Part shown: one piece after another, positions 7,050-44,905 of the stretch
Numbering within the stretch: position 1 is the first letter of the stretch
Layout of the letters: each line of letters opens with the position of its first letter
NCBI GenBank assembly: GCA_964016885.1
Contig: OZ024740.1
Coordinates: forward strand, 332,878,001 to 332,942,000
Length of the DNA: 64,000 nucleotides
Source: Eledone cirrhosa
Taxonomy: Eukaryota
Reading direction: 5' to 3'
Program-made: the position numbers and the translations under genes
The notes under the pieces: generated by a model
The model's database searches: none
Told to the model about the DNA's origin: nothing
What the model saw: only the letters and a program-made list of their open reading frames with translations

Positions 7050-7506
7050 TAGTAATAATAATAAATTTGAAGACTAAAATCCAAAGAGGGCTCGATAAGG
7101 ATGAATATATATCAAATATATAAGAACCGTAGAGCAAATATTTATTAAAATAACAGATTAAAGTTTAAGCAAAGAATCGCTGCTTTCACCCTTAACGGCA
7201 TCTTTTGAAACTAACAAAGTCAATCTGTAAACGCAGAACTGGATATTTCAAAAAACGTTGCAACCGGAGGAAGACAGGAAGACGATACTTTGGTTCGTGG
7301 AAAGGTTCGCTGGCAAAGAACGGGAAAAAACGAATAATACGTCATTAATAGGAGCGGTGAAAAACAATTACGCGCAAAGACAGAACCACGTTTATGGTAT
7401 AAAAGAGGTCGTAGACTAATGTTCTCTTTTGTTAGTTTCAGAAGATCCCGTTAAGGGTGAAAGCAGCGATTCTTTGCTTAAACTTTAATCTGTTATTTTA
7501 ATAAAT
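7050..7506. mobile_element. Non-coding HHR repeat family A (CAGAAGA core): minus-strand copy plus a short inverted copy, between (TA)n tracts
   Basis: 7138-7216 is the reverse complement of 7428-7506. The family recurs at about 20968-21090, 26360-26545, 42378-44905 and 48665-48720. Confidence 0.8.
7434..7484 (+). ncRNA. Type I hammerhead-like motif with U4A core variant (family A)
   Basis: AGTTT-CAGAAGA-T-CCC-GTTAA-GGG-T-GAAA-GCAG-CGATTCT-TTGC-TT-AAACT: stem I AGTTT/AAACT, stem II CCC/GGG, stem III AGCAG/TTGCT, CUU site. Confidence 0.65.
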
Positions 7507-7614
7507 ATATATATATATATATATATATATATATATATATATATATATATATATATATATATATATATATATATATATATATATATATATATATATATAT
7601 ATATATATATATAT

Positions 7615-41782: not shown

Positions 41783-42377
41783 CTTCGAATGTAACAGTTC
41801 TAGTCATGTAGACGTCATTTCTATATTAAATACATATATCTGCTATGTATTGCGTACAATACTTACTGTGGTCACCCCCCGATTTAAACCCGGGATACAC
41901 ACACACACACATTTCCTATCAGCACATGGAGATCTTTGAAATGGGTATGTTTTGCTAATTAAGGTTTTTATGGAATACCTGGTCTGGTCTTTCAACTATC
42001 TCAACATTTCAGATTATAACATACATACAAGATTATGCACATATATTTGTTTACAGAACTTAATGGGGTATGTTGTGCACTTATATTTGTTACAGTGTCT
42101 ACAATTGTCTGCCAGGATTTTTTGAGGTCATTGGGTTGGCGGGCGTGCGTGAAAGACAAATCGACATGTGCAAGATCATGATTGATCCAGGGATAATCTT
42201 ATATATATATATATATAATATACATATGATATAATTTATATATATATATATATATATATATATATATATATATATATATATATATATATATATATATATA
42301 TATATATATATTTATATATAAATAAATAAGTTGTATATATATATAAATAAGTATATATATATATATATATATATATA

Positions 42378-44905
42378 GTAATAATAATACATTTGAAGAC
42401 TAAAATCCAAAGAGGGCTCGAGAAGGATAAATATATATCAAATATATAAGAACCGTGGACCAAATATTTATTAAAATAACAGATAAAAGTTTAAGTAAAT
42501 AATCGTTGCTTTCACCCTTAACGGGATCTTCTGAAACTAAAAAAGTCAATCTGTGAACGCAGAAGTAAATATTAAAAAAACGTTGCAACCGGAGGAAGAC
42601 AGGAAGACGATACTTTGGTTCGTGGAAACGTTCCCTGGCAATGAACGGAAAAACACGAAGATAATACGTCATATGTGGAGCGGGGAGAACAATTGCACGC
42701 AAAGACAAAACCACGTAAATGGTATAACTGAAGTCGTAGACTAAAATTCTAGCTAGGAAACCGAATGATTCTCGGCTTCAGAGTTAAGAAAAAAGTAAAT
42801 AAAATACAGAGGTAATTGAAATTAAATAAATACATACAGGCAATCATATACGTACATACACAAGCATACGCGAAATCACACGCCATATGTATACAAATAC
42901 AAGCACTTACACAAACAAAACCCCGCACGCACATACAGAACCCACGCAACGCCTGTACCCGCACACATACGAATCTATGCACCAAATACACATAAAAATA
43001 TATTTAAAAAAATATATATATATACATATGTGTGTGTGTGCGCGTGTATACATATAATTAAATATACGTATATAAATAAATAAATACGTATATAATGCGC
43101 ACACACAATTACCTACATGTAAATACACATATGTTCGGAGACTATGTCAACCAAAACACAAAGTACACATATACACACACCCTACATATGTACAAACCCG
43201 CATATTCACACAGACGCACAACTCGCTTATACACATAACCAAATGCATATGTACCAAAATATATAATATATACGCCATAACATATACAAGCAAATATACG
43301 TACGAGAAAGTATCCGTACCTTCACAAAAGATACAGGTAATATATACTTACCTATACAAATAAGTAATGGTATAAACATAACATATAATTAGCTACCGCA
43401 TCAAGACGTAAAATATCCGCGTATGGTTCGTACTATCCGTTAGGGTACAATGTGTGGCTGTAATACAGGAACGTTTTGTGCAATTTATGTTTACAAGCCG
43501 AAATTGCCTCAGATTTTTTGTTTAAGATGTGGTCTATGGCGTAGAGTATTTCCAGGGCCTCAGCGGCGCAGAGGTCACATGGTCTTTTATTTACGTTATA
43601 CGATCTAGCCTTAGCTAGGATCTCCCAGTGTAACCTATATTGGGTGTGGTTGTCTTTTAGACTTCAGATATAAGCTGAAAGTGACGTCATATTCCTTCTT
43701 AAAGGGCTAAGAAAAGAATGGGTATGCATGTAAACGCGCTGCTTGAATCTATTGGCGGTTAACCCTACGTAGGCCCTACGGGACGTGGGTGTTTCAACCT
43801 TATATTTGTAGACAATGTTACTAGCGAGGCATTTCCCGGATAGGGGGCAGTCAACCCGATTTCTACAATTACAGTTAGTACTAGCTACAGGGTTGCACGT
43901 GTTCCTACGGCTAAAGTTGAAGCTGTGATGTTATGTGCAAGACTAGGAGTCGTAGAGTAAGAAATGTTAATGGTATTTCTATATATGTATTTCTATATAT
44001 GTATTCCGATATTTGTGTATGTACGTATTCTAATGATATTTCTATATATGTATTTCTATATATGTGTATTTGGTGTATACATTCGTATGTGTGCGGGTAC
44101 AGGCTTGCGTGGGTTCTGTATGTGAGTGCGGGATTTTTTTTTTGTGTACGTGCTTGTATTTTTATACCTATGGCGTGTGTTTTCGCGTATGCTTGTGTAT
44201 GTACGTATATGATTACGTGTATATATTTATTTCATTTCAATTACCTCTGTATTTTTATTTACTTTTTAACTCAAAAGCCGAGAATCATTCGGTTTCCTAG
44301 TTAGAATTTTAGTCTATGATTTCAGTCATACCATTTACGTGTTTTTGACTTTGCGTGCAATTGTTCTCCCCGCTCCACATATGACGTATTATCTTCGTTT
44401 TTTCCGTTCATTGCCAGAGAACGTCTCCATGAACCACCTAATAGAATATTAGTCTACGACTTATTTTATACCATAAACGTGGTTTTGTCTTTGCGTGTAA
44501 TTGTTTTTCACCGCTCCAAATAATTGTTTCTACTTTTGGCACAAGGCCAGCAATTACCCAGAGCATTACTGGTACTTTATTTTATCGACCCCGTAAGGAT
44601 GAAAGGAAAAGTTATCCTCGGCGGGATTTGAACTCAGAATGGCAAGGCCCGAAACTCTATACGTCAAAGCATGGCCTCCGACCCTCTACCGATACTGCCA
44701 AATGACGTATTATCGTTTTTTCCCGTTCTTTGCCAGGGAACGTTCCCGCGAACCAAAGTATCGTCTTTCTGTCTTCCTCCGGTTGCAACGTTTTTTGAAA
44801 TATTTACTTCTGCGTCCACGGATTGACGTTTTTAGTTTCAGAAGATCCAATTAAGGGTGAAAGCAGCGATGCTTTGCTTAAACTTTAATCTGTTATTTTA
44901 ATAAT
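42378..44905. mobile_element. Largest family A element: inverted arms plus partial tandem pLTR-like copies, no ORF, HHR motifs at 42488-42538(-) and 44834-44884(+)
   Basis: About 42615-42995 is the reverse complement of 44060-44435, and 42465-42745 of 44448-44905 (interrupted by a SINE). Flanked by (TA)n. Confidence 0.8.
44521..44701 (-). mobile_element. tRNA-type SINE inserted into the family A element
   Basis: SINE consensus on the minus strand. Family A sequence resumes at ATGACGTATTATCG. Confidence 0.88.

What the first reader, a model, noticed from the sequence alone, without database searches (positions are those of the whole stretch)
7434..44884. Abundant family A has a fixed non-canonical core CAGAAGA (U4A)
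Seen: copies at 7434(+), 20990(-), 42488(-) and 44834(+) all read CAGAAGA, and the 7162 and 26484 copies also have A at this position, while stems I-III and GAAA are in correct register (CUU site). Established: U4 is nearly invariant in HHRs. Inference: either a tolerated natural core variant or a successful family that keeps the fold for RT recognition rather than catalysis. A weaker, unrelated CAGAAGA..GAAA candidate lies at 59240-59273.
Basis: partly seen in the sequence, partly recalled or inferred. Interest (0 to 1): 0.75.

Follow-up and report, generated by a model that had tools for sequence, protein, structure and literature searches.

The report
Penelope hammerhead with fixed U4A core
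These repeats are end-pieces of a very abundant jumping gene whose hammerhead-shaped RNA motif has an A where its relatives have a U in 99% of about 18,000 exact copies and in its older subfamilies too; it is likely a slowed-down self-cutting RNA (cutting untested), which would offer a natural test of what these motifs do.

Summary
The motif is the type I hammerhead in the pseudo-LTR of an autonomous Hydra-clade Penelope-like element (709-aa RT plus GIY-YIG frame). Genome-wide exact counts: A4 17,754, T4 72, C4+G4 112. Older subfamilies also carry A4. Between old and young master lineages the core changed at 0 of 14 and the stems at 1 of 42 positions, against 10 of 22 in loops and 37% in flanks, so the fold is under constraint with A4 in place. 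The closest family found here (53% aa) and all 26 published Hydra rows keep U4. Stubs start at stem I behind an extra G, a likely cap mark, and copies end downstream of the cut site, so they come from uncut RNA; 5' ends are not enriched at the cut site. Best reading: an attenuated, probably protein-assisted ribozyme (0.5); a non-catalytic handle is the main rival (0.25). Corrections: the six cited copies are four insertions, the A at 26484 comes from an inverted arm, 59240 is chance, and covariation is minimal. The scan noted this family before on other DNA of this genome; ten paper searches found no U4A hammerhead.

The parts
7434..7484 (+). Type I hammerhead motif of family A: stem Ia 7434-7438/7480-7484, core CAGAAGA 7439-7445 (A4 = 7440), U.U plus stem II 7446-7458, GAAA 7459-7462, stem III 7462-7478, predicted cut after 7479; 7434 corresponds to the likely capped RNA start
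7428..7513 (+). Sense arm of insertion 1: 5'-truncated pLTR ending at the first 3' end, in (TA)n
7053..7427 (-). Inverted arm of insertion 1: pLTR plus tail; decayed motif 7162-7212 (A4 kept, G5A)
20961..21091 (-). Insertion 2: stub with intact motif 20990-21040 (C3 21035) joined to a short inverted tail
26356..26554 (.). Insertion 3: fold-back stub; the junction removes stem I 5' strand and C3, so position 4 is not readable
42375..43982 (-). Insertion 4, minus arm: endonuclease-coding fragment (about 43410-43982), 3' UTR, motif 42488-42538 (C3 42533), tail
44147..44916 (+). Insertion 4, plus arm: 3' UTR interrupted by a SINE-like repeat (44518-44700), motif 44834-44884 (C3 44839)
48658..48745 (-).
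59240..59273 (+). Rejected candidate: CAGAAGA..GAAA by chance, no stem I

Best explanation
Family A is a Hydra-clade Penelope-like retrotransposon whose pseudo-LTR hammerhead fixed U4A early in its history and is likely a slowed-down, protein-assisted ribozyme rather than a dead one. Shown: full units read pLTR-tail-ATG-709-aa RT/GIY-YIG frame-3' UTR-pLTR; A4 is in 99% of copies and in older subfamilies; the other core bases and the stems did not change while loops and flanks did; copies end about 29 or about 111 bases downstream of the predicted cut. Inferred: transcription starts at the first base of stem I (extra G in front of stubs, read as a copied cap), so the motif is the first 51 bases of the mRNA and recurs at its 3' end; cutting the front copy would remove the cap and cutting the rear copy would remove the sites where reverse transcription starts, so insertions carrying the motif come from uncut RNA; a slower ribozyme would therefore cost little or help, while residual cutting (for example of read-through or tandem transcripts) would keep G5-A9 and G12-A15 under selection. 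The change may have arisen by a micro-inversion of the odd palindrome TTC-W-GAA centred on position 4 (inferred).
For: Element structure and open frames; Hydra motifs RW[KR], DKT, CxCx5C, CxxC, CxH, (TA)n. Counts. Old subfamily found by its upstream UTR alone: A in 29 of 30, one gap; 98 and 99 of the first 100 listed in two looser patterns. Old versus young majority: core 0/14, stems 1/42, loops and N7 10/22, upstream 59/139, downstream 31/102 (Fisher p 5e-6 to 9e-10 for core plus stems). G8 and G12 kept. U4 outgroups: family B 38 of 38, 26 of 26 Hydra rows in Craig File S2, 10 of 12 motif groups in 864 kb. Extra G at 12 of 15 loci that start at stem I, against 6 of 47 rows at other starts. 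Published: an anole PLE hammerhead cuts only with its protein, and core mutants do not affect insertion in vitro (PMC11167929); natural U4C lowers activity yet supports viroid infectivity (PMC3088659).
Against: No cleavage or RNA data. In a full mutational scan of a type III hammerhead all single changes in the CUGA region gave low activity (PMC9901934, passage; the U4A value itself not seen). 5' ends show no excess at the cut site: 789 junction-like hits around it, roughly 150 per position against a rough baseline of 280. The hammerhead is not the predicted minimum-energy fold (ensemble share about 1%; z about 0), and in the young family A4 favours a rival helix that sequesters GAAA. Compensatory change is nearly absent. 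Stem Ib was labelled after seeing the alignment. Conservation of the first 46 bases could partly be promoter constraint. The exact time of the change is not fixed: the tree branch grouping A with B has only 94/88 support.
Confidence: 0.5

Rival explanations
1. The motif is catalytically dead and is kept as a fold that the element's RT/endonuclease binds, positioning internal initiation about 29 and 111 bases downstream.
For: Copies come from uncut RNA and no cut-site excess is seen; core mutants do not affect insertion of the anole PLE in vitro (PMC11167929); CUGA mutants are weak (PMC9901934); the family reached more than 17,000 copies with A4.
Against: All 14 core positions, including the catalytic G8 and G12, stayed unchanged across about 37% flank divergence, more than a shape-only handle would obviously need; in the anole element the 5' part of the template, with the core, could be trimmed without loss of insertion (PMC11167929).
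Confidence: 0.25
2. U4A is a fully tolerated variant: stem Ib, the longer stem III or the protein restore near-normal cutting.
For: Strict core conservation; position 4 is C in another small group here and in a viroid (PMC3088659); tertiary contacts are said to offset core variants (PMC3088659).
Against: U4 in 26 of 26 published Hydra rows and 38 of 38 family B copies; low activity of CUGA mutants (PMC9901934); no 5' ends piled at the cut site.
Confidence: 0.15
3. The conservation is at the DNA level: the motif overlaps the internal promoter, and the RNA fold is a relic.
For: The likely start lies in an initiator-like TCAGTT/TTAGTT at stem I (motif name recalled); D. virilis Penelope has an internal promoter in its first 48 or so bases (PMC2377424, passages).
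Against: Both strands of stems I and III and the UU at +45/+46 are kept while loops inside the same stretch vary; a promoter does not predict pairing.
Confidence: 0.1

Closest known systems
Hydra clade of C-terminal EN+ Penelope-like elements and their hammerheads (Craig et al. 2021, PMC8557442; section 11, passages and supplement part 2 read)
   Same: RW[KR], DKT, CxCx5C linker, CxxC and CxH, (TA)n targets, one frame, hammerhead near the 3' end; T after A9 and T before GAAA in 14 of 26 listed rows, as here.
   Different: All 26 listed rows have ctga (U4); this family has A4. Stem III here is 5 bp with a 7-nt loop, not a short palindrome; the unit is about 3.2 kb.
Minimal type I hammerheads of metazoan PLEs (Cervera and de la Pena 2014, PMC4209133; parts 1-2 of 4 read)
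   Same: Type I motif in pLTRs, mostly in truncated copies, opposite-strand pairs, low expected activity; a U3-A8 core variant is described (as in family B here).
   Different: No position-4 variant in the parts read; family A lacks G10.1-C11.1 and the palindromic loop 3.
Poseidon element of Anolis (Frangieh et al. 2024, PMC11167929; parts 1-2 of 4 read)
   Same: Two 3' ends downstream of the hammerhead, AT-rich targets, uncut RNA as template.
   Different: Other clade; canonical core as far as read; its hammerhead overlaps the start codon, here it lies about 200 bases upstream.
Natural hammerhead core variants (Perreault et al. 2011, PMC3088659; section 8 and passages read)
   Same: U10.1.U11.1 is tolerated; U4C occurs in a viroid.
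   Different: U4A is not mentioned in the main text (0 occurrences); figure panels not seen.

Membership tests
Hydra-clade PLE | Single frame with RT and C-terminal GIY-YIG-type endonuclease | tested here: met
   709-aa open frames; 526 homologues at E<=1e-30. Pfam gave no family for two partial frames, so domain names rest on motifs.
Hydra-clade PLE | RWK-like motif, DKT for DKG, CxCx5C linker, CxxC and CxH, no CCHH | tested here: met
   RWR at 37, DKT at 115, CxCx5C at 564, CxxC 662, CxH 690; absence of CCHH judged by eye and a rough pattern.
Hydra-clade PLE | pLTR, partial tandem, inverted 5' arm, optional tail, (TA)n target | tested here: met
Hydra-clade PLE | Placement in a tree with named Hydra references | not tested
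   Tree held only unnamed homologues.
Type I hammerhead ribozyme | Three helices in type I order with A15.1-U16.1 and H17 | tested here: met
   Pairing by inspection and constraint pattern; not the minimum-energy fold.
Type I hammerhead ribozyme | Core C3 U4 G5 A6 N7 G8 A9, G12 A13 A14 | tested here: not met
   U4 is A in 17,754 of 17,938 exact matches; all other core bases canonical.
Type I hammerhead ribozyme | Compensatory covariation in stems | tested here: inconclusive
   Stems invariant between masters; one outer pair T-A (8 of 9 parsed of 30) versus C-G (3 of 4 parsed of 30).
Type I hammerhead ribozyme | Match to an Rfam hammerhead model | tested here: not met
   No hit for the A4 copy nor for a natural T4 copy at E<=10, so the miss is not due to A4.
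Type I hammerhead ribozyme | Self-cleavage 3' of N17 | not testable with these tools
   No assay; genomic 5' ends show no excess at the site.
Non-LTR retrozyme | Non-coding tandem units each with a hammerhead | tested here: not met
   Copies are truncated ends of a coding element.

The most novel reading that the evidence does not exclude
A whole, highly successful Penelope lineage switched off hammerhead catalysis by one templated base flip and has since kept the entire catalytic core as a protein-recognised structure at the capped start and the priming end of its RNA: a ribozyme exapted into a non-catalytic reverse-transcriptase handle.
Probability: 0.25. Interest if true: 0.72.

Novelty: new variant of a known kind. 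Interest (0 to 1): 0.5.

Why it matters
What hammerheads do for Penelope-like elements is an open question in the papers read (PMC4209133, PMC8557442, PMC11167929). This family gives a natural, lineage-wide core change with natural T4 controls in the same genome and a U4 sister family, so the question can be tested with unaltered sequences. If A4 cuts, the natural core consensus widens and CUGANGA-based searches miss whole families; if it does not, a ribozyme core has been kept for a non-catalytic job.

Tried and rejected
1) A U4 sister subfamily: a looser pattern gave 1,155 U4-looking hits, but 28 of 30 fetched (29 by eye) are fold-back junctions centred on position 4; only L116 is a plain T4 copy. 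2) T4 copies as an ancestral subfamily: no shared diagnostic changes, and 9 of 15 fetched (8 of 14 insertions) are stubs cut at the RNA start, so many probably arose during insertion. 3) Poseidon clade: my first label, replaced by Hydra. 4) 'Family B has lost its hammerhead': an error of my short stem II filter; it has a complete U3-A8 motif with a 54-base stem-loop II. 5) A conserved off-switch helix made by A4: present in young copies only, not in 23 old copies folded. 6) C3-A4-G5 as a splice acceptor: no spliced junction among 227 distinct copies held. 7) Fossil of cleavage at the cut site: not seen, test rough and blurred by A-run and TA microhomology. 8) Rfam: no hammerhead hit among the 150 rows shown for the window or. 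9) Expression: no RNA holder listed. 10) Lunse et al. 2017 on small PLE hammerhead variants and two mutational papers were not held; they may report position-4 data. Figures of PMC3088659 and PMC9901934 and bioRxiv supplements were not seen. Alignment A1 was not used for pair counts because young rows were out of register.

Full report
Observation. The four main copies read CAGAAGA with C3 at 7439(+), 21035(-), 42533(-) and 44839(+). Stem I (AGTTT/AAACT), a U.U pair plus 3-bp stem II, GAAA, a 5-bp stem III and a CUU site are in register; the cut would fall after 7479. The six cited copies are four insertions: 7162/7434 and 42488/44834 are inverted arms of one insertion each. At 26484 the 5' core strand is replaced by the inverted arm, so its A says nothing. 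The candidate at 59240 has no stem I and folds worse than 197 of 200 shuffles. A fifth insertion at 48658-48745 lacks the 5' core.

How fixed is A4. In the 3.0-Gb assembly a 31-base exact pattern matches 17,754 times with A, 72 with T and 112 with C or G. Samples not chosen by the core agree: 38 of 38 and 24 of 25. The T4 copies share no diagnostic changes and 9 of 15 fetched are stubs cut at the likely RNA start. A looser pattern gave 1,155 U4-looking hits, but 28 of 30 fetched are fold-back junctions centred on position 4, the middle of the odd palindrome TTC-W-GAA. Contigs of four other coded organisms carry the motif with no other letter listed at position 4, at low depth; in raw reads of organism A (depth about 4,500) position 4 is not among the 40 best-supported variants, with 144 rows not shown.

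What the element is. Neighbouring copies led to full units: pLTR, tail, ATG, a 709-aa frame, about 950 bases of 3' UTR, pLTR; several copies keep the whole frame open. The protein has RWR, DKT, CxCx5C, CxxC and CxH and copies sit in (TA)n, the traits given for the Hydra clade (PMC8557442 section 11). Pfam gave no match. In that paper's File S2 all 26 Hydra rows have ctga and 14 have the same T-stem II-T as here, so U.U is a clade trait and U4A is the single core deviation. The host is probably an octopod (inference from repeat content and the listed Hydra-1_Obim).

Age and constraint. Older subfamilies differ at N7 and in loops II and III; 98 and 99 of the first 100 hits of two patterns have A4. 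Thirty copies found with the upstream UTR alone give A in 29 and a gap in one. Their decayed frames are about 60-79% identical to the young protein. Old and young majority lines differ at 0 of 14 core, 1 of 42 stem, 10 of 22 loop/N7, 59 of 139 upstream and 31 of 102 downstream positions. This is a constraint pattern. Compensatory change is limited to one outer pair of an extended stem Ib seen in few parsed copies, and stem Ib was defined after inspection. The closest other family found here, B (53% aa; grouped with A at 94/88), has a complete U3-A8 motif with U4 in 38 of 38. Of 12 motif groups with two or more copies in 864 kb, 10 have U4, one A4 (this family) and one C4. So A4 is derived and old.

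Where the motif sits in the RNA. Copies end at two sites, about 29 and about 111 bases downstream of the cut, as in the anole element where these are internal priming sites (PMC11167929). Among copies truncated near the core, 15 loci start exactly at the A of AGTTT and 12 of them have a G in front, against 6 of 47 rows at other starts (only G or A can be scored there, and some G's may come from the inverted arm). I read this as a copied cap, which puts the start at the 7434-equivalent base and A4 at +7 (inference). Either way, a copy that spans the cut site was made from RNA not cut there. 5' ends are not enriched at the cut site: 789 hits around it, of which most of the first 100 are junctions by eye, give about 150 per position, against about 280 from 15-16 of 31 unselected 3' ends (rough).

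Folding. The hammerhead is not the minimum-energy structure for A4 or for a natural T4 copy (about 1% of the ensemble each); in young copies A4 favours a helix that pairs the 5' core with GAAA (0.39 against 0.02), which old copies lack. Rfam finds neither copy.

Mechanism. Most likely (0.5) an attenuated, protein-assisted ribozyme: cutting removes the cap or the priming sites, so slowing costs little, while residual cutting keeps the rest of the core. Rivals: non-catalytic handle (0.25), fully tolerated variant (0.15), promoter overlap (0.1; PMC2377424 passages). Published data cut both ways: CUGA mutants are weak in a full scan (PMC9901934 passage), U4C supports a viroid (PMC3088659), and core mutants do not stop insertion in vitro.

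Novelty. Ten searches showed no U4A hammerhead; Lunse et al. 2017 was not held. Papers seen: PMC4209133 and PMC11167929 parts 1-2 of 4; PMC3088659 section 8 and passages; PMC8557442 section 11, passages, supplement part 2 and searches; PMC9901934 passages and one supplement search; PMC6765202, PMC3376415, PMC6155905, PMC11014351, PMC2377424 passages; bioRxiv 10.64898/2026.07.22.740005 part 1 of 5. The scan has noted this family at least five times on other DNA of this genome; those notes gave me the Hydra lead and the cut-site test, and are not counted as support. Verdict: real, a new variant of a known kind, interest 0.5.

Noticed in passing
L211:3203-3320 (G000:C1 near 437,203,700); ends in window near 53170-53220: Family B, a young Hydra family in 3,531-base tandem arrays, has a type I hammerhead with U3-A8 core, 54-base stem-loop II and GUC site; short descriptors miss it. 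35 of its 3' ends in 864 kb.
   Followed up: yes
L353 and L366 (minus strand): A small repeat group with a CCGAAGA (U4C) hammerhead-shaped motif, 3 copies in 864 kb.
   Followed up: partly
L091-L120: About a thousand family A insertions are fold-backs whose centre is core position 4; T4 is enriched in stubs at the RNA start.
   Followed up: partly
window 7616-10400: A different, broken PLE (RT and endonuclease frames 7799-9486, inverted 5' end, decayed motif near 10170-10205) in the same TA run; Neptune-like by a recalled linker motif, not tested.
   Followed up: no
window 34096-38757: Inverted-arm Hydra-type element with endonuclease fragment 36050-36700(-) and a canonical minimal hammerhead at 38673(+), z -2.7.
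   Followed up: partly
window 14044-19196: Inverted-arm PLE with RT and endonuclease fragments and U4 motifs at 14196(-) and 19044(+).
   Followed up: no
window 19719(-), 20193(-), 33714(+), 22151(+), 41775(-), 56506(-): Further U4 hammerhead-shaped motifs of other families, several with U.U at 10.1/11.1.
   Followed up: no
L046:1095-1145 in runs X23, X24: About 800-1,000 reads per run place this piece of the tail between fixed foreign flanks, like a capture by another repeat (Helitron-like 5' end, label recalled).
   Followed up: no
window 22344-25388 and 110-2612: Rep/helicase-like frames (Helitron-like) and a broken LINE-type RT frame; labels recalled from motifs.
   Followed up: no
window 44518-44700, 3700-3841, 39486-39671, 52080-52265, 55272-55414: Copies of a tRNA-type SINE-like repeat (label recalled).
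   Followed up: no
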